Below are positions 30,041 to 54,478 of a stretch of 64,000 nt of DNA, one piece after another. The stretch lies in the IMG/VR virus record IMGVR_UViG_3300030099_005838; one strand, 5' to 3'. Numbering within the stretch: position 1 is the stretch's first letter; every line of letters starts with the position of its first letter. Below the pieces are notes generated by a model. It saw only the letters and a program-made list of their open reading frames with translations. It searched no databases and was not told the origin of the DNA. The position numbers and the translations under genes were made by a program. The stretch comes from a virus.

Positions 30041-31327
30041 ATGTTAAAAAAACTTATGATGGGTTTACTATTAACTACATCATTACTTAGTCAAAATATA
30101 ATTGGAGACTTTTTTAAGTATTCTACTGCATATGCAAGTTTCAGTTTGAATGCTCCACGATATCAAGACGATAGATTTGCTATCATAGGAGGATTAAGTA
30201 CAGGACAGTTAGAAATCAGTAGGGATAAGAGGGAATTAAAGCCTGACTTTCAGACATCATTTGGTTTAAGAAAGATTGGTAGATTCCAATACGAACCAAA
30301 AAGAGGTGTAAAGTCTGCTGGTAAAGGTGGTACTTGGTACGATGGTTCAGAACAGAATGCTAATGAAAGTGCCACATTTGGTCCTGTTAAAGGTTGGGAG
30401 TATTTAATAAAGTTGTCAGAAGGTAGACAATGGGGCAATGATTATGTTAATAGAGAATTTTGGTTAAGATACATTGGTGATTATTTGATGGCAAAAGTTG
30501 GTGTTACTGAATTAGGGCTAGAAGATATCAAATATACACAAGGTGATATTAGACTTCATCTAACACCTGAAGCACTTAATGACAAATTTCACTTATCAGT
30601 TGGTGTAAAACATAGACAACATCCAGTATATGGATTTGACGCAATGGTATTGGATACGACTTGGTATAGAGGTGAATGGTGGAAGTTTGCTGAGAAAGCA
30701 TTTGGTATAGATGATAATGCTTGGTTCACACAGGAGTATTATGAAAACGGAGATTTAGATGTCCAATTGTACGAGTTAGATCCTGAGACTGGAGAACTGA
30801 GACCAATCGAAGGTGGTGGTCCTTTTTGGAATGATGATGGTAGATTTGTCGGAGTAGACTGGCTTTGGAGAGATGTTGACGGTAGAATATTTGCTTATAC
30901 GGATAGAGAGTATTTCTTATATCATTTTCCTGGTATGTTAGAAGAATACATCGGTGAAGTCAAGAAAAGTTTGGGTAGTCAAAATGAAACCTCATTAGTA
31001 TTGGGTATTGATTTTTATCACTACGGTGAAAATTGGTGGTTACATACTTGGGGTAATTGGTTACCTTATCACTACGGACATACAACACATGCATATCACA
31101 ATGCAGCCCATTATAGAAAACACAAAGATGATGGTGGTAAACCGCATGAGTTTATGTTTATGGACAAAATGTGGCATAGTTGGAATGATTACGATATGGG
31201 AGCAATATTTGGAGTAAAGATAAAAGATAATCTTGGAGTCTTTGCTGAAGGAAGATATTTGTATTATTGGGAACGGCCAGCATACGATATCAAATTAGGA
31301 ATTAATTATCAATTTATGGGATTTTAA
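30041..31327 (+). CDS. putative outer-membrane beta-barrel protein
   Basis: Signal peptide; amphipathic aromatic strands; C-terminal YDIKLGINYQFMGF. Confidence 0.6.
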   Translation: MLKKLMMGLLLTTSLLSQNIIGDFFKYSTAYASFSLNAPRYQDDRFAIIGGLSTGQLEISRDKRELKPDFQTSFGLRKIGRFQYEPKRGVKSAGKGGTWYDGSEQNANESATFGPVKGWEYLIKLSEGRQWGNDYVNREFWLRYIGDYLMAKVGVTELGLEDIKYTQGDIRLHLTPEALNDKFHLSVGVKHRQHPVYGFDAMVLDTTWYRGEWWKFAEKAFGIDDNAWFTQEYYENGDLDVQLYELDPETGELRPIEGGGPFWNDDGRFVGVDWLWRDVDGRIFAYTDREYFLYHFPGMLEEYIGEVKKSLGSQNETSLVLGIDFYHYGENWWLHTWGNWLPYHYGHTTHAYHNAAHYRKHKDDGGKPHEFMFMDKMWHSWNDYDMGAIFGVKIKDNLGVFAEGRYLYYWERPAYDIKLGINYQFMGF

Positions 31328-31328
31328 G

Positions 31329-31937
31329 ATGACACACGAGGAAATATACAATACAGTAAGAATGATTTGCGGTTCACTACTAATGGTAGGAATATTAATA
31401 ATACCAAGTTGTGAAGATGAAATAGTAGAAGAAGAAATAGTTTTAGAACCATCCATGCAACTTTGGGTAAATGGTGATTATATCGATCCATATACTTATT
31501 ACGCACAAATAAATACTTATGGTGAAAAAGTTTTAGGTGATGATGGTAAGATTAAAAAACTATTTGTTCTGCATTTACAAAGAGAAGTAGGTAGAGTTTT
31601 ACCAGAGTTAGAACATTATGCTGGTATATGGTATGATGAAGATGGGGAAGATAATGCTATGTTAATTGATCCTGGTTTATATTTGAACTACGGCCCGACA
31701 GATACATTGTCTCACACAAGAGAACAAACAATGAATATGGAGATTATCGGTAGCTTTGATTACACAGAATTTGCTCAATCAGAAATATACATCAATAATG
31801 ACAATAAAATTTCTGGTATGGCAAACGGTAAATTTTACAACCCATATAGAGATGAGATGCAGATTGGCTTATTAATTTTTGAAAACATAGAAATAGGAAC
31901 AGATCCAGACGCAACATTTTATACTGGTGAGAATTAA
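31329..31937 (+). CDS. putative lipoprotein
   Basis: LLMVGILIIPS|CEDE. Confidence 0.55.
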   Translation: MTHEEIYNTVRMICGSLLMVGILIIPSCEDEIVEEEIVLEPSMQLWVNGDYIDPYTYYAQINTYGEKVLGDDGKIKKLFVLHLQREVGRVLPELEHYAGIWYDEDGEDNAMLIDPGLYLNYGPTDTLSHTREQTMNMEIIGSFDYTEFAQSEIYINNDNKISGMANGKFYNPYRDEMQIGLLIFENIEIGTDPDATFYTGEN

Positions 31938-31940
31938 ATA

Positions 31941-32576
31941 ATGAATGGTGATATCAAAATAGGTAAGTTATTATGTGATGAAGATATAATCACTAAAAGA
32001 CAATTGAACAAAGCATTGCAGGCTCAAGTAAAGGGTGATAAACGCACGATTGGTGAAATTTTAGTTGATTTGGGTTTTTGTGATTTTGATGATATTACCA
32101 ACGCCTTACTAAACCACGATTCTGATACCACGCATCATGAAGAAAAAACAGAAGAAATACATTCTGAACCAGAACCAGTTGTCGAAGAACCAAAAGAAGA
32201 ACCAAAGAAAAAAGAATCAATAGAACTGAGTGAAGATAAGGTATTGGATACTAAATTCACGTTATCTGTACAAACAATGATTGCGGCTGGTACAGGTTTG
32301 GCATCATTGATTGGTATGTGGTATGCCTTACAAGCAGAAATAGAAGAGGCAAAAGAGTTACCAGCCATTGACATAGAAAAGATTTTTTCAGATGAGTATC
32401 CATCTAAACCCGAAGGTCATAACTGGCCTCGATCTTATGAACAGTATAAAACACAAGTAGGCCAGCTCCAGGAAGATATGGATGAAGTATTTGAACAGTT
32501 GGAGGAATATGAAGAAACCATAGATGAGTTGGAAAAACAGGTAACTAATTTAAGGGTAAAAGTAGGGAGTAAGTAA
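31941..32576 (+). CDS. MshEN/T2SSE_N-like domain + TM helix + coiled coil
   Basis: KIGKLLCDEDIITKRQLNKALQAQ / TIGEILVDLGF.. Confidence 0.7.
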   Translation: MNGDIKIGKLLCDEDIITKRQLNKALQAQVKGDKRTIGEILVDLGFCDFDDITNALLNHDSDTTHHEEKTEEIHSEPEPVVEEPKEEPKKKESIELSEDKVLDTKFTLSVQTMIAAGTGLASLIGMWYALQAEIEEAKELPAIDIEKIFSDEYPSKPEGHNWPRSYEQYKTQVGQLQEDMDEVFEQLEEYEETIDELEKQVTNLRVKVGSK

Positions 32577-32964: not shown

Positions 32965-32980
32965 TGTAACAGGTGTAACA
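32965..32980. promoter_or_regulatory. candidate enhancer (bEBP UAS)
   Basis: TGT-N10-ACA inside GTGTAACA direct repeat, 117 bp upstream of sigma54-like site. Confidence 0.35.
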
Positions 32981-32985
32981 TTTTG

Positions 32986-33013
32986 AAAACCTCACTTTTT
33001 AGTGGGGTTTTTT
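32986..33013 (+). terminator. rho-independent terminator
   Basis: AAAACCTCACT-TTTT-AGTGGGGTTTT plus T-run. Confidence 0.7.
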
Positions 33014-33096
33014 GTTGCGTACTCTAAGTAGTTAGTATACAATAATTTAAAAAACTAATAAGAAAAAAATAAAAAAGTTTTCTATATTGCAAAGTT

Positions 33097-33112
33097 TGGT
33101 ACAGTTATTGTA
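33097..33112 (+). promoter_or_regulatory. sigma54-like -24/-12 promoter
   Basis: TGGTAC-AGTTA-TTGTA (GG-N10-GT); near copy at 46389. Confidence 0.5.
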
Positions 33113-33147: not shown

Positions 33148-33774
33148 ATGTTCAAAACAATCAAACGATATCTAAAGAGCACGAATGGTAACTCGTTGGC
33201 TGAATTTGCTGTAACAACAGCTATGATGGCTACACTTGCTACTACTGCTGCACCTAAATTTTCTGGTGTTGGTGAAGGTGCTAAAGAGAAAAAGACAATG
33301 GCTGATATTGATAAAATTGTCAAATCTGCTAATAACTTTTATAACGCTAAAGTAACTGAAGAAGGTCGTGGAAGATTTCCAGGTCAGGTTAAGTATGATG
33401 AGGGTGTTGGTGGATATGCTTCCGACTCACTTATAGTATCTGGTTTAGGTGGTTTCACTTCTTATGAATCATCAGAGGGTTCTAATTGGGTTTCTGTATT
33501 TGGTACAACAACTACAGGTGCTCTAGCTCCAAGTGGTCATAACATTGATGTTTCAGAAGACGATAACAAAGATGGTTCGTTCGATCCTTCCATTGGTGCT
33601 GAAGAATTCTTAGACCAATTTGGTGGTAACCCAATCAAGACACCATTTCAGGATGGTCATTACATCTATGCGGTAATCGCTGGTGGTGGAAGTGGTTCAT
33701 CTTCTTATTCACCAATCTTGTATGTTGCTGATTTAGAAAACCCATCAAACTTCTTTAAGAAGTTACAGCCGTAG
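33148..33774 (+). CDS. type IV pilin-like protein (atypical G|NSLAE site)
   Basis: Basic leader, G at -1, E at +5, hydrophobic helix ending APKF. Confidence 0.7.
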   Translation: MFKTIKRYLKSTNGNSLAEFAVTTAMMATLATTAAPKFSGVGEGAKEKKTMADIDKIVKSANNFYNAKVTEEGRGRFPGQVKYDEGVGGYASDSLIVSGLGGFTSYESSEGSNWVSVFGTTTTGALAPSGHNIDVSEDDNKDGSFDPSIGAEEFLDQFGGNPIKTPFQDGHYIYAVIAGGGSGSSSYSPILYVADLENPSNFFKKLQP

Positions 33775-33784
33775 GAGATACAAA

Positions 33785-34210
33785 ATGAAAAATCAGAAAG
33801 GATTTACTCTAATAGAACTTATTATGGTTACGATCATTTTAGGTATTTTAGCCGCTGTTGCTATTCCTCGATATATGACATCGGTTACGAAAGCAGAAGA
33901 AGCGGCTGAAGATGCGGTGATTAGTGCAATCAAAGCTGGTTTAGAAACATATGCTGTAGAACAACTTATGGATAATGGTCGTAGAAGTTGGCCTGATAAT
34001 CCGTGGGATGCTTTAGAAACTAAACCTGCTGGATACACTACAGATGCTACTGATGCAGATGTCGATGGAGAGTGGACATACAATACCACTTCCAAAAAAA
34101 TCACACATCAGCGTGGTGATAACTCTCGTGTAGGTTGGCTATATGATGAAGGTACACAAACAGGAGACAATGCTGCTGTTGGTACACTTGGTGCAAGAGC
34201 TGATTTGTAG
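33785..34210 (+). CDS. type IV pilin/pseudopilin (MshA-like)
   Basis: KG|FTLIELIMVTIILGILAAVAIPRY. Confidence 0.92.
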   Translation: MKNQKGFTLIELIMVTIILGILAAVAIPRYMTSVTKAEEAAEDAVISAIKAGLETYAVEQLMDNGRRSWPDNPWDALETKPAGYTTDATDADVDGEWTYNTTSKKITHQRGDNSRVGWLYDEGTQTGDNAAVGTLGARADL

Positions 34211-34219
34211 GAGTTAACT

Positions 34220-34660
34220 ATGAGAAACTCTAAAGGGTTTACTCTGATAGAGTTAGTCGTAACTATAGCTTTAGTGGGGATACTCGTTGGTTCGGTTATC
34301 CCCACTTTTCATAGGGCGGTAAATGAAACTCAGATATCAGTAAACATATCCAATATGACAATCATAAAACAATCATTTATGCAATATTATTATGATAATC
34401 ATATGAGCGGTAATCCACACTTTCCACAATTACCACAAGATAGCCTAATGAATGCTACATACCGACAAACTGTATTAGGAGATGGTAGAACACCTGATAT
34501 GCTGTTTAGTGGAGATTTACCTTATAATACAAATCAAAAGCCTTATATTTATTATTGGGAAAACGATACGTTAAATGGATATGTAACTAAGCGTATCATA
34601 ATAAAAGATACAGATCCTGATAGTCCATCTTTTGAAAAAGAAGTGGTTGGAGAAATTTAG
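34220..34660 (+). CDS. type IV pilin/pseudopilin
   Basis: KG|FTLIELVVTIALVGILVGSVIPTF. Confidence 0.9.
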   Translation: MRNSKGFTLIELVVTIALVGILVGSVIPTFHRAVNETQISVNISNMTIIKQSFMQYYYDNHMSGNPHFPQLPQDSLMNATYRQTVLGDGRTPDMLFSGDLPYNTNQKPYIYYWENDTLNGYVTKRIIIKDTDPDSPSFEKEVVGEI

Positions 34661-35055
34661 TGAGTAAAGGCTTTACACTAATAGAAATATTAGTTGTAAT
34701 TCTTTTAATTGGTATAATGAGTGCGGTAGCTGTACCGAGGTTTGAGAAGAGAATTGAATTAGAAGAATTGAAACACGAAAAGAAATTCACATATACATTG
34801 TGGGAAGAGTTGGAAGTATATGCAAAGAAACAATATGAATTGACAGGTGAACAAAGTTGGCCTGAACATCCATTATCTGTTTTAGGTAGAACAAGAAATA
34901 TAATAGTCACTTATGATTTAGGAATACCTGATGAAGACAATGAGTGGCAATTTGATGGAATTAATCTATACCATAGGAGAATGAATAATGAAATCTGGTA
35001 TTACCAATATGATCCCAATACTTTTTTTCTTTCTGAACATCCAAGTAAGTTATAG
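34660..35055 (+). CDS. type IV pilin/pseudopilin
   Basis: KG|FTLIEILVVILLIGIMSAVAVPRF. Confidence 0.9.
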   Translation: MSKGFTLIEILVVILLIGIMSAVAVPRFEKRIELEELKHEKKFTYTLWEELEVYAKKQYELTGEQSWPEHPLSVLGRTRNIIVTYDLGIPDEDNEWQFDGINLYHRRMNNEIWYYQYDPNTFFLSEHPSKL

Positions 35056-35377
35056 TGATACTACTGATTTCGAATTAGACTTAGATGTCATGTGGGAAAA
35101 TACGGTATGGGAAGAAATACAAGATGTAGTAGATGTAGGTTATGAGGTTGAGAAAGTAACACCCGTAGCTGGTGTTCGTGGAGCAGAAGCAGAGGATGAA
35201 GCTCTAGCATTATTATATTATAGAAAGAGTATGAAAGGATTATCTCTTTTAGATTTACAAAAGGCTTATGGTAAGTTAGTTAATAGAAGAGAAATCATGA
35301 TTAAGGATGGAGTAGATACTAAAAAAATAGATGGTTTCATTATTACATTAAGAGGAAAAATACAAAAAAAGTCTTGA
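35009..35377 (+). CDS. secreted hypothetical protein
   Basis: MIPILFFFLNIQVSYS signal-like; VAGVRGAE. Confidence 0.5.
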   Translation: MIPILFFFLNIQVSYSDTTDFELDLDVMWENTVWEEIQDVVDVGYEVEKVTPVAGVRGAEAEDEALALLYYRKSMKGLSLLDLQKAYGKLVNRREIMIKDGVDTKKIDGFIITLRGKIQKKS

Positions 35378-46388: not shown

Positions 46389-46404
46389 TGGTATAGATAT
46401 TGTA
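46389..46404 (+). promoter_or_regulatory. sigma54-like -24/-12 promoter
   Basis: TGGTAT-AGATA-TTGTA upstream of hsp20. Confidence 0.5.
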
Positions 46405-46472: not shown

Positions 46473-46949
46473 ATGACTAAAGTTACTTTTCATCGCGGTT
46501 TACCCGTAATCGATAGAGATTCCTTTTTAACACCTTTTGATAGAATGTTTGATGAGATTGTAGGAAAATCTTTTCCTGAAATCAATCAGCAAGTTGGAGT
46601 CAATCCATTTCAAGGTACAGCATACCCAAAAGTCAACGTATATGAATACGATGACAAAATTGGTGTGATAGCAGAGATACCTGGTTTGGATAAAAAAGAC
46701 TTACATGTAGAAGTTGAAGAAGGTGTGTTAACCGTATCTGGAGAGAAATCTCATGGATTTTTTGATGAAACCAAAGCAAAAGTTTTGCGTCGTGAGTTAA
46801 AGCACTCATCTTTTAAAAGACAATTTACTTTAGGTGATATGTTAGATGGAGATAATATCTCTGCTAATTTTAAAGATGGTATTTTATCAATCGAAATCCC
46901 AAAGATAGAACCCGCACTTCCAAAGAAAAGCGTTGTCAAAATTAAGTAA
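46473..46949 (+). CDS. small heat-shock protein Hsp20
   Basis: YPKVNVYE..AEIPGL..LTVSGEK..FKRQFTL..FKDGILSIEIPK. Confidence 0.92.
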   Translation: MTKVTFHRGLPVIDRDSFLTPFDRMFDEIVGKSFPEINQQVGVNPFQGTAYPKVNVYEYDDKIGVIAEIPGLDKKDLHVEVEEGVLTVSGEKSHGFFDETKAKVLRRELKHSSFKRQFTLGDMLDGDNISANFKDGILSIEIPKIEPALPKKSVVKIK

Positions 46950-53320: not shown

Positions 53321-54478
53321 ATGTTTGATAAATTTTTTGATGAACCAAAATTCGACTTTGACGCTGAGCGTACAAAGTTCATATCTAACTTAGACTTACT
53401 AAAGTCTATGTCTGTACAAGAACAAACCTTATATAAGAAGTGGCAAGAATTCAATAAGAATGAATATAATATGAGGAATAAAGTTACGAACTTTCCTAAA
53501 TATTATAACAGACTTTGGAAACCCACCGATATTACAAATAAAGAATTAACCATAAAAGAAATTGAATCTATAGAACCAGAGGTTGTGTTTGTTCCATCTG
53601 ATGATGCTAGTAATTGGACTATGTATCGTATGTTAATTCACACTATGGATTGGAGTGCTAATCCTGGTCGTAATCAAAAGTATTTTGTAAGAGATAAAGT
53701 TACAGATAAGATATTAGGTTTAGTATCATTAGGTTCTGATGTTACATCAATCAAAGTTCGTGATGACTATATTGGTTGGAGTAAGGATAATAAATTTGTC
53801 GACCATAAACTAAATAATACCGCTATCGCTTCTACAATAGTTTGTACTCAACCTATTGGTTTTAATTTCTTAGGTGGTAAACTAATTGCAGCATTAACAA
53901 CATCATCTACCATTCGTGATAAATGGTTTGAACAATATAATGATATTCTAATTGGTGTAACCACTACATCGCTTTATGGTGTACACTCACAGTATAATGG
54001 TATACCACATTGGAAAACACTTGGTGAATCTGCTGGTAAGATTGCAATCAAACCAGACGATGATGTTTACTTTGTGTGGGCCAATTGGTTGAAAGAAAAT
54101 TATAGGGAAGAGTTTGATAAGGCACAAAGTCAAACAGGCCCTAAACAAAATACTATCAATCGTATCTTCAAACACTTAGGTATAAAAGGTAAGGATTATG
54201 AACATGGATTTCATAGAGGTGTATTCTTTGCCAATATGTATGACAATGGTTTAGAATATCTGAGAAATGAAATTGAAGATAAAGATTTAAGAATGAAACC
54301 AAAATTTGAAAATGATATAGATTACATAATGAATTGGTGGAAACCAAAAGCCATCAGACGTTATGTTAAACTATATGACAATGATAAACTTAAACCTGAA
54401 GTGCTTTTCTATGGTGATATTGTAGGAAAGACTTGGGAAGAAACTAAGAAACAATATATAGGAGAAGTAGGAAGATGA
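53321..54478 (+). CDS. DUF4338/DruA-like protein
   Basis: NPGRNQKY..RDDYIGW..QPIGFNFLGGKLIA..TTTSLYG. Confidence 0.65.
   Translation: MFDKFFDEPKFDFDAERTKFISNLDLLKSMSVQEQTLYKKWQEFNKNEYNMRNKVTNFPKYYNRLWKPTDITNKELTIKEIESIEPEVVFVPSDDASNWTMYRMLIHTMDWSANPGRNQKYFVRDKVTDKILGLVSLGSDVTSIKVRDDYIGWSKDNKFVDHKLNNTAIASTIVCTQPIGFNFLGGKLIAALTTSSTIRDKWFEQYNDILIGVTTTSLYGVHSQYNGIPHWKTLGESAGKIAIKPDDDVYFVWANWLKENYREEFDKAQSQTGPKQNTINRIFKHLGIKGKDYEHGFHRGVFFANMYDNGLEYLRNEIEDKDLRMKPKFENDIDYIMNWWKPKAIRRYVKLYDNDKLKPEVLFYGDIVGKTWEETKKQYIGEVGR

What the first reader, a model, noticed from the sequence alone, without database searches (positions are those of the whole stretch)
33148..35055. Phage-encoded four-gene type IV pilin cassette
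Four tandem class III prepilins (three G|FTLIE, one G|NSLAE) form their own unit between a terminator and the next early promoter. No peptidase, ATPase or secretin is present in the window, so host machinery would process them. With the MshEN gene and sigma54-like promoter this looks like a pilus-reprogramming system for receptor switching, superinfection exclusion, or altered adhesion and DNA uptake. This is the strongest novel-system candidate; function is inference.
Basis: partly seen in the sequence, partly recalled or inferred. Interest (0 to 1): 0.85.

Follow-up and report, generated by a model that had tools for sequence, protein, structure and literature searches.

The report
Phage copy of host pilus genes
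A large uncultured ocean phage carries five genes for pilus subunits copied, on-switch included, from its probable host (SAR406/Marinimicrobia bacteria), so infected cells most likely build or re-coat their pili with phage-made parts; this kind of trick has a recent laboratory precedent.

Summary
Four tandem prepilin genes lie at 33148-35055. A fifth co-travelling gene (34988-35377) belongs to the unit.

The cassette is not an orphan invention. It is syntenic with the pilin array of Marinimicrobia (SAR406) genomes: P1 57-70%, P2 62-74% and P3 31-41% identical. P4 is a diverged P2 paralogue. The fifth gene matches the last gene of the host's pilus secretin operon.

The phage copies are nested inside host diversity, are under purifying selection, and have phage-like codon composition. 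They keep a sigma-54-type promoter and TGTAAC enhancer repeats at the host position. The host operon encodes the matching sigma-54 activator. The hosts also have RpoN, a prepilin peptidase, a PilB-like ATPase and a secretin; no phage record held has any of these.

Most likely the host machinery expresses, cleaves and assembles the phage pilins into the host pilus. The purpose is inferred. Re-surfacing the pilus to exclude other phages is favoured, by analogy with P-FimU/P-PilA (PMC12952977). Keeping the pilus working during infection is the main rival.

This scan reached the same kind of result on other DNA (e1-5747533, e1-5736103). I rate it a new variant of a known kind.

The parts
32966..32981 (+). 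Two TGTAACA repeats (also a TGT-N10-ACA), candidate enhancer for the host sigma-54 activator, about 130 bp upstream of the promoter
   Evidence: Identical in L001 and L005. TGTAAC/GTTACA occurs 1.56 times per promoter in -220..-60 of 27 phage and host P1 promoters, against 0.12 per 160 bp background.
32985..33014 (+). Intrinsic terminator closing the upstream genes
   Evidence: Hairpin of -20.6 kcal/mol, z = -6.5, none of 200 shuffles as stable, followed by a U-run.
33097..33112 (+). Sigma-54-type promoter (TGGTAC-N5-TTGTA), 51 nt before the P1 start
   Evidence: A TGGTAY-N5-TTGTA element lies upstream of P1 in all seven related phage loci with upstream sequence, at -47 to -52 in four of them. 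The host proximal P1 genes carry TGGCAY-N5-TTGCT at -53 to -72. The pattern has 4 matches in the window against 0.67 expected.
33148..33774 (+). P1: divergent type IV pilin (14-residue leader, G|NSLAEF), orthologue of the promoter-proximal P1 paralogue of the Marinimicrobia pilin array
   Evidence: pilin fold; 57-70% identity to host; clade with host proximal paralogues, support 99/98; dN/dS 0.21 overall, helix 0.05, head 0.25.
33785..34210 (+). P2: canonical type IVa-like pilin, orthologue of host P2; likely co-major subunit
   Evidence: N_methyl 36.7 bits. 62-74% identical to Marinimicrobia P2. dN/dS 0.13. Best solved full-length relative is Thermus PilA5.
34220..34660 (+). P3: pilin, orthologue of host P3 (31-41% identical)
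   Evidence: N_methyl 34.7 bits. Same position in the host array. dN/dS 0.13.
34660..35055 (+). P4: pilin, diverged paralogue of P2 (GTG start overlapping the P3 stop)
   Evidence: N_methyl 26.5 bits. 34% identical to P2 over 121 residues, E = 2e-22. Its best host match is the host P2 gene itself, 30-32%. dN/dS 0.32.
34988..35377 (+). Fifth gene: small secreted acidic protein of unknown fold; homologue of the last gene of the host pilus secretin operon
   Evidence: 50-58% identical to one gene in each of five Marinimicrobia genomes. In G003 that gene ends the PilMN-PilO-secretin operon. 30 invariant columns between phage and host. Travels with the pilins in L001, L006, L007 and L008. AGGAG site 8 nt upstream.

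Best explanation
This is a fragment of the host's own pilin operon, captured once by an ancestor of this group of large marine phages from Marinimicrobia (SAR406) bacteria, together with its sigma-54 promoter and enhancer.

Shown:
- Homology and synteny with the host array.
- Phage copies nested within host diversity.
- Purifying selection with the same helix/head pattern as host pilins.
- Phage-like codon composition.
- A conserved promoter and enhancer motif.
- In the hosts, and not found in the phage records held: RpoN, a sigma-54 activator inside the pilus operon, a prepilin peptidase, a PilB-like ATPase, a PilC-like platform protein and a secretin.

Inferred:
- In an infected cell, host sigma-54 RNA polymerase and the host PilR-like activator transcribe the cassette.
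- The host peptidase cuts the leaders after the conserved glycine.
- The host machinery polymerises the phage subunits into the host's surface filament, because the assembly helix is 82-95% identical to the host's.
- The exposed heads are only 43-67% identical, so the pilus surface changes.

Most likely purpose (inference, by analogy with P-FimU/P-PilA): re-surfacing a pilus that phages use as a receptor. Further phages, or the phage's own progeny, then no longer adsorb to an already infected cell.
For: Phage identity of the window: DNA polymerase III alpha domain, CobS/CobT-like pair and baseplate wedge hits. Eight IMG/VR viral contigs from different samples carry the cassette among phage genes.

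Host locus:
- It reads [P1 x 2-4]-P2-P3-(further pilins)-LamG protein in Marinimicrobia MAGs, single-cell genomes and contigs up to 583 kb.
- No other window ORF matches those loci.
- In G003 the P1 array starts directly after response regulator-PilD-PilB(MshEN)-sigma-54 activator-PilC.

Trees: phage P1 sits in a 99/98-supported clade with the host proximal paralogues, and phage P2 is nested within host P2.

Selection: dN/dS is 0.13-0.32 for all five genes. For the helix it is 0.05 and for the head 0.17-0.25, the same as in the host.

Composition: GC3 is 22-24% in the phage copies, as in the phage background, against 26-58% in host copies.

Promoter and enhancer.

Host machinery: peptidase, T2SSE ATPases, secretins and RpoN are present in 5 of 5 host genomes. 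None was found over the family cut-off in the phage records or the window.

Precedent: prophage FimU copies are built into the Pseudomonas pilus and block tip-binding phages, and PilA-like genes occur in virulent phages (PMC12952977).
Against: - No expression, cleavage or assembly data exist.
- The phage promoter has T instead of the canonical C at -12 (TTGTA), and TGGTA at -24. Only one host paralogue promoter (L125) shows TTGTA, so it may be weak or used differently.
- It is not known that this or any other phage uses the Marinimicrobia pilus as receptor.
- The filament could be a secretion pseudopilus. ATPase, platform and secretin score about equally for T4P and T2SS models, all below the equivalog cut-offs.
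- The phage records are at most 68% complete, so absence of machinery from the whole phage genome is not proven.
- Tree roots are midpoint or outgroup-by-choice, and phage monophyly has only moderate support (76/83 and 88/85).
Confidence: 0.6

Rival explanations
1. Auxiliary 'keep it running' genes. The phage supplies fresh subunits so that the infected cell keeps a working pilus once host gene expression fails. The pilus might serve attachment to polysaccharide particles, staying suspended, or DNA/nutrient uptake. This would parallel cyanophage psbA.
For: - Retention of the host's own promoter and enhancer means expression follows the host's pilus regulon rather than the phage programme.
- Selection on the phage copies cannot be told apart from that on host copies.
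- The host pilin locus is followed by a LamG protein, a fucosidase and a GH109 enzyme.
- A T4-like cyanophage carries a lone 'pilin' gene among psbA, psbD and talC.
Against: - The exposed heads differ by 33-57% from every sampled host allele. A pure replacement function does not need this.
- Nothing shows that host pilin supply becomes limiting during infection.
- No experimental precedent was found in four literature searches.
Confidence: 0.27
2. Assembly poison. The phage pilins enter the host machine but block extension or retraction, so the pilus is removed as a receptor or host competence is shut down.
For: - PMC12952977 raises this possibility for truncated phage PilA-like proteins, and notes that over-expressed FimU disrupts assembly.
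- P4 is a fast-evolving extra paralogue with no host orthologue.
Against: - All four are full-length pilins.
- Their heads are under purifying selection like host pilins.
- Gene order and the bicistronic P1-P2 arrangement mirror the functional host locus.
- A poison would not need four subunits plus a secretin-operon protein.
Confidence: 0.08
3. Pseudopilins of a type II-like secretion system. The phage boosts secretion, for example of glycan-degrading enzymes, rather than a surface pilus.
For: - P2's best NCBIfam hit is GspG, and P4's is GspH.
- The host platform protein scores best as GspF.
- A GspB-like (T2SSB) protein and an ExeA-like AAA_22 domain lie in the host operon.
Against: - All of these scores are far below the curated cut-offs (GspG 48.9 against 88.85 bits).
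- The host carries 2-4 tandem, highly diverged P1 paralogues, each with its own strong promoter. That pattern fits an exposed, varying surface filament, not a periplasmic piston.
- The ATPase scores highest as PilB and the secretin as PilQ.
Confidence: 0.05
4. Passenger DNA or an assembly chimera: host DNA joined to phage contigs, with no function in the phage.
For: The cassette is clearly of host origin. Host arrays often sit at contig ends, which shows they are hard to assemble.
Against: - Eight independent viral contigs carry it between phage genes.
- dN/dS is 0.13-0.32 across phage copies whose dS is 0.7-1.0.
- GC3 is ameliorated to the phage value.
- Phage-specific promoter changes are shared by all phage copies.
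Confidence: 0.01

Closest known systems
P-FimU and P-PilA: phage or prophage copies of type IV pilus subunits (Sztanko et al., Cell Rep 2026, PMC12952977)
   Same: A phage encodes a diverged but assembly-competent copy of a host pilus subunit and no machinery. In that work the copy is built into the host pilus and blocks phage adsorption. The paper also lists PilA-like genes in virulent phages.
   Different: - Here there are five genes rather than one: two likely major subunits, two further pilins and a secretin-operon protein.
- They were captured with a sigma-54 promoter and enhancer.
- They sit in a large, apparently virulent marine phage of an uncultured phylum.
- The host system and the P1 pilin family are uncharacterised.
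- No incorporation or exclusion has been tested.
Single pilin-like genes annotated in T4-like phages (Synechococcus phage ACG-2014f 'pilin'; N-methylation-motif ORFs of Aeromonas phages 44RR and Aeh1, PMC1524935; PHROG 3433 'pilin')
   Same: A prepilin-motif ORF in a large myovirus, without machinery.
   Different: Those are lone genes known only from annotation, with similarity limited to the N-terminal helix. None matches P1, and no host-syntenic multi-gene cassette or host promoter has been reported for them.
Sigma-54/PilR-dependent pilA promoters of type IVa pili (Pseudomonas, Myxococcus; from established knowledge)
   Same: Pilin genes are preceded by a -24/-12 promoter with upstream activator sites, and an NtrC-family activator is encoded in the pilus locus.
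   Different: - The phage version has GT instead of GC at -12, and TGGTA at -24.
- The motif repeats are TGTAAC.
- No sigma-54-dependent promoter is known to me in a T4-like phage; this last point rests on my own knowledge.
Cyanophage auxiliary genes under host regulators (for example pstS/phoA under PhoBR; from established knowledge)
   Same: A host-derived gene kept with a host regulatory site, so that the infected cell's own sensor decides its expression.
   Different: The products here are structural surface subunits rather than metabolic enzymes or transport proteins.

Membership tests
Type IV pilin (class III signal peptide; PF07963 / TIGR02532) | Short basic leader ending in Gly, Glu at +5, hydrophobic N-terminal helix recognised by the family models | tested here: met
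   P2, P3 and P4 score 36.7, 34.7 and 26.5 bits against a cut-off of 21.2, and 32.7, 27.0 and 28.9 bits against 16.3 for TIGR02532. P1 hits no model, but Gly14 and Glu19 are near-invariant and one family member has G|FSLTEL.
Type IV pilin (class III signal peptide; PF07963 / TIGR02532) | Pilin 'lollipop' fold: a long N-terminal helix packed on a beta-sheet head | tested here: met
   P1 model has a helix at 13-72 plus three strands, pLDDT 78.6. 22 of the top 30 VIA-align entries are pilins or pseudopilins, but Z is only 5.0-5.5. Foldseek found nothing significant. P2-P4 were not folded.
Type IV pilin (class III signal peptide; PF07963 / TIGR02532) | Cleavage and N-methylation by an A24 prepilin peptidase, and polymerisation into a filament | not testable with these tools
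   Only the prerequisites are shown. A24 peptidases are present in 5 of 5 host genomes, and the host's own P1 genes carry the same G|(N/Q)SLAEF site.
Phage-encoded replacement pilus subunit (P-FimU / P-PilA kind) | Encoded in a phage genome and homologous over its full length to a pilus subunit of the host | tested here: met
   Phage context. Full-length homology and synteny with Marinimicrobia pilins.
Phage-encoded replacement pilus subunit (P-FimU / P-PilA kind) | Built into the host pilus and prevents adsorption of pilus-binding phages | not testable with these tools
   Indirect only: the assembly helix is 82-95% identical to the host's and the head 43-67%.
Sigma-54-dependent promoter | Conserved GG at -24 and GC at -12 with fixed spacing | tested here: inconclusive
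   GG and the spacing are met and conserved in all phage copies. At -12 the phage has GT (TTGTA) instead of GC, while the host paralogues have canonical TGGCAY-N5-TTGCT; one host promoter (L125) also reads TTGTA.
Sigma-54-dependent promoter | RpoN and an enhancer-binding activator available, with upstream binding sites | tested here: met
   RpoN is in 5 of 5 host genomes and in none of the phage records. A Sigma54_activat plus HTH_8 protein lies inside the host pilus operon. TGTAAC repeats are enriched 13-fold upstream. Binding itself is untested.
MSHA-type pilus system (host machinery) | MshE-type ATPase with an MshEN c-di-GMP domain, MshL secretin, MshM AAA protein, MshN TPR protein | tested here: inconclusive
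   MshEN domain on the ATPase scores 43.5 bits against a cut-off of 38. An AAA_22 domain is fused to PilM/PilN, and a TPR protein is present. But the secretin scores higher as PilQ (188) than as MshL (94), and all equivalog scores are below cut-off.
Type II secretion major pseudopilin GspG | Score above the TIGR01710 equivalog cut-off | tested here: not met
   P2 scores 48.9, P3 33.1 and P4 30.9 bits against a cut-off of 88.85.

The most novel reading that the evidence does not exclude
A virulent T4-like phage has wired part of its genome into the host's sigma-54/enhancer-binding-protein regulon as an extra promoter class. A second intergenic copy of the phage-type element lies at 46389. Through this wiring the phage makes a phage-specified, two-component (P1 plus P2-type) filament. 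With the conserved secretin-operon protein, this filament gives the infected cell a new surface behaviour, such as clumping with uninfected hosts or particle attachment, rather than merely masking a receptor.
Probability: 0.2. Interest if true: 0.8.

Novelty: new variant of a known kind. Interest (0 to 1): 0.62.

Why it matters
- It gives a sequence-based host assignment (SAR406/Marinimicrobia, a major deep-ocean phylum with no cultured member or isolated phage) for a very abundant group of uncultured marine phages.
- It extends the newly described strategy of replacing a host surface part with a phage-made copy. The extension runs from a single minor pilin in a Pseudomonas prophage to a whole multi-subunit cassette in an oceanic lytic-type phage.
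- It shows a captured host sigma-54 promoter and enhancer kept intact in a T4-like phage. That implies the infected cell's own pilus regulator decides when the phage genes are on.
- It defines an uncharacterised pilin family (P1, G|N/Q-SLAEF) and a conserved small secreted protein as parts of the Marinimicrobia pilus system.

Tried and rejected
- blastn of the region against 50,697 deposited phage genomes gave no match. tblastn with P1 gave none. With P2 it gave only N-terminal-helix matches to lone pilin genes, and one 'Acinetobacter phage' record that is really bacterial chromosome.
- No whole genome is held for the window.
- Foldseek of the P1 model against the PDB found nothing at E <= 0.001.
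- The AlphaFold model of the fifth protein was too poor to search (pLDDT 53). The protein atlas gave only unnamed viral clusters at scores below 0.9.
- The upstream outer-membrane-barrel-like gene (30041) and the MshEN gene (31941) were tested as possible further host captures. Neither matched five Marinimicrobia genomes, and the MshEN gene resembles host PilB only at motif level. I do not count them as part of the cassette.
- I first took P4 for the counterpart of the host's fourth, GspH-like gene. I rejected this because its best host match is P2 itself.
- I considered a phage-type promoter in the conserved ATATAGG just after the -12 element. The motif is rare and is not placed before other genes.
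- Four literature searches for marine or Marinimicrobia phage pilins found nothing specific.
Full report
**What is there**

The window is a low-GC (34%) stretch with almost all genes on the plus strand. It carries phage hallmarks: a DNA polymerase III alpha domain, a CobS/CobT-like pair and gp6-type baseplate wedge hits. No whole genome is held for it.

Five tightly packed genes lie at 33148-35377, each behind an AGGAG ribosome site:
- P1, 208 aa.
- P2, 141 aa.
- P3, 146 aa.
- P4, 131 aa, with a GTG start overlapping the P3 stop.
- A 129-aa secreted acidic protein that overlaps P4 by 68 nt.

P2-P4 pass the curated cut-offs of the prepilin N-methylation models. P1 matches no model, but the evidence shows it is a pilin:
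- Its family has 318 clusters at 50% identity.
- Gly at -1 and Glu at +5 are near-invariant, and one member has a classical G|FSLTEL site.
- Its model is a long helix plus a small beta head.
- A fold search independent of Foldseek puts pilins and pseudopilins in nearly all top ranks, at modest Z of 5.0-5.5. Foldseek itself found nothing significant.

A strong terminator closes the upstream genes.

**It is a resident phage cassette**

Eight IMG/VR viral contigs from different samples carry it.
- Five keep the flanking phage genes of this window.
- Two (L006, L008) have a reduced form in another phage context: P1, one pilin with a P2-like helix and a P4-like head, and the fifth gene.

Among phage copies dS is 0.7-1.0 and dN/dS is 0.13-0.32 for all five genes. 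Third-position GC is 22-24%, as in other phage genes, against 26-58% in the cellular homologues. An assembly chimera or a recent passenger is therefore excluded.

**Where it came from**

P2 has full-length relatives at 62-74% identity in MAGs and single-cell genomes labelled Marinimicrobia / Neomarinimicrobiota. Those loci contain 2-4 tandem P1 paralogues, then P2, then P3. In L010, three further pilins (one GspH-like), a 631-aa LamG protein and glycan-degrading enzymes follow P3. No other window ORF matches these loci.

A family-wide scan found P1-type genes in 44 genome loci. The named ones are almost all Marinimicrobia, and they include chromosomal contigs of 220 and 583 kb. A few oddly labelled short contigs look mis-binned, and one (L169) is phage-like.

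In trees, phage P1 falls in a 99/98-supported clade with the promoter-proximal host paralogue. Phage P2 is nested inside host P2 when rooted on a distant single-cell genome. One acquisition is compatible with both trees, though support for phage monophyly is moderate.

P4 has no host orthologue. Its best host match is P2 (30-32%), and it is 34% identical to phage P2, so it is a diverged P2 paralogue.

The fifth gene has one homologue (50-58% identity) in each of five host genomes, with 30 invariant columns.

**The host system**

In one host genome (G003, contig 33) the order is: response regulator, A24 prepilin peptidase, PilB-like ATPase with an MshEN c-di-GMP domain, a sigma-54 activator (Sigma54_activat 219 bits plus HTH_8), a PilC/GspF platform protein, and then a P1-type gene at the contig end.

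On the other strand lies an operon containing:
- an AAA_22-PilM-PilN fusion;
- a PilO-like protein;
- a GspB-like protein;
- a secretin;
- a CHASE2 cyclase;
- an FG-GAP giant protein;
- a PorV/TPR protein;
- last, the homologue of the phage's fifth gene.

Host pilin arrays tend to start contigs. This fits an assembly break inside the tandem P1 paralogues.

All five host genomes have A24 peptidases, two PilB/GspE-type ATPases plus a PilT-like one, two or more secretin-domain matches each, and RpoN. The phage records held (at most 68% complete) and the window have none of these.

Whether the system is best called MSHA-like, type IVa or type II-like is open, because all equivalog scores are below cut-off. 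I read the filament as surface-exposed because the host keeps several strongly diverged, separately promoted major-subunit paralogues. That reading is an inference.

**Regulation**

Every host P1 paralogue is preceded by a canonical sigma-54 promoter, TGGCAY-N5-TTGCT, 53-89 nt before the start.

Every related phage copy with upstream sequence has TGGTAY-N5-TTGTA upstream of P1. In this window and four relatives it lies 47-52 nt before the start, followed by a phage-specific ATATAGG.

TGTAAC/GTTACA repeats lie 60-220 bp upstream of these promoters, 1.56 per promoter against 0.12 expected. In this window they are at 32966-32981.

The pattern has four matches in the window against 0.67 expected. 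Only two of the four are intergenic: the one before the cassette, and one at 46389.

The shared derived promoter changes in all phage copies argue for a single capture. The T at -12 is a caveat for promoter strength.

**How it most likely works**

The mature N-terminal helix, which forms the filament core, is 82-95% identical between phage and host P1/P2. The exposed head is only 43-67% identical. Both parts evolve under the same constraints in phage and host: omega about 0.05 for the helix and about 0.2 for the head.

The simplest reading has three steps:
- Host sigma-54 polymerase and the host activator switch the cassette on.
- The host peptidase and machinery process and polymerise the products.
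- The infected cell's pili then carry phage-type surfaces.

The purpose is not shown. A recent study demonstrated that prophage FimU copies are incorporated into the Pseudomonas pilus and block tip-binding phages. The same study listed PilA-like genes in prophages and virulent phages (PMC12952977).

By that analogy I favour exclusion of further phages. Sustaining pilus function during infection is the main rival. Assembly poisoning and a role in type II-like secretion are less likely.

**Relation to earlier notes**

The scan had already reached the same kind of conclusion on other DNA (e1-5747533, e1-5736103). A note on a prophage (e1-5353158) pointed me to the Sztanko paper, which I read. My host link and promoter comparison were obtained before I saw these notes. 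They agree with them, and with the SAR406 host proposed for this genome from another gene (e1-5810317).

**Limits**

- The host is uncultured.
- The phage genomes held are incomplete.
- The fold of the fifth protein is unresolved.

Noticed in passing
window 46389-46404: A second intergenic copy of the phage-type sigma-54-like element, TGGTAT-N5-TTGTA followed by ACATATAG as in phage L008. It lies 69 nt before the ORF at 46473-46949. Two further matches, at 923 and 7360, lie inside ORFs.
   Followed up: partly
window 31941-32576: A membrane-anchored protein with an MshE-type c-di-GMP-binding domain above the curated cut-off (NF053729, 42.1 against 38 bits), plus a transmembrane helix and a coiled coil. 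The host pilus ATPase carries the same domain, but the two are alike only at motif level. The gene is not next to the cassette in phages L006/L008.
   Followed up: partly
window 53321-54478: Phage ORF with a clear match to the Druantia defence protein DruA (PF14236, 88.7 bits, E = 5e-25; also phrog_19197).
   Followed up: no
window 30041-31327 and 31329-31937: A signal-peptide protein ending in an aromatic residue, like an outer-membrane barrel, followed by a lipoprotein-like gene. Neither has any family hit. The barrel-like protein has no match in five Marinimicrobia genomes; the lipoprotein-like gene was not searched there.
   Followed up: partly
L124 (G003 contig 33, 26000-45999): The host secretin operon also encodes a CHASE2-adenylate/guanylate cyclase (960 aa) and a 1410-aa FG-GAP repeat protein between the secretin and the TPR/PorV-like protein. 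This is an unusual make-up for a type IV filament locus.
   Followed up: no
L150, L151 (Marinimicrobia contigs of 583 and 220 kb): Some hosts carry 3-4 tandem P2 paralogues as well as several P1 paralogues, so both subunit types are multiplied and diversified in the host.
   Followed up: partly
L169, L148/L164, L011, L016: Contigs with this pilin array are filed under Dehalococcoidia, Methanobacteriota, Balneolaceae and Nitrospinaceae MAGs. L169 has phage-like P1-P3 (65-78% identical) and is probably a mis-binned phage fragment. The others look like mis-binned Marinimicrobia DNA.
   Followed up: partly
L128 (CAKLQH020000005.1): A record deposited as 'Acinetobacter phage MD-2021a' shows ordinary chromosomal genes (priA, lnt, kefB, T2SS epsF/xcpT) around the match. 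At least that contig is bacterial.
   Followed up: no
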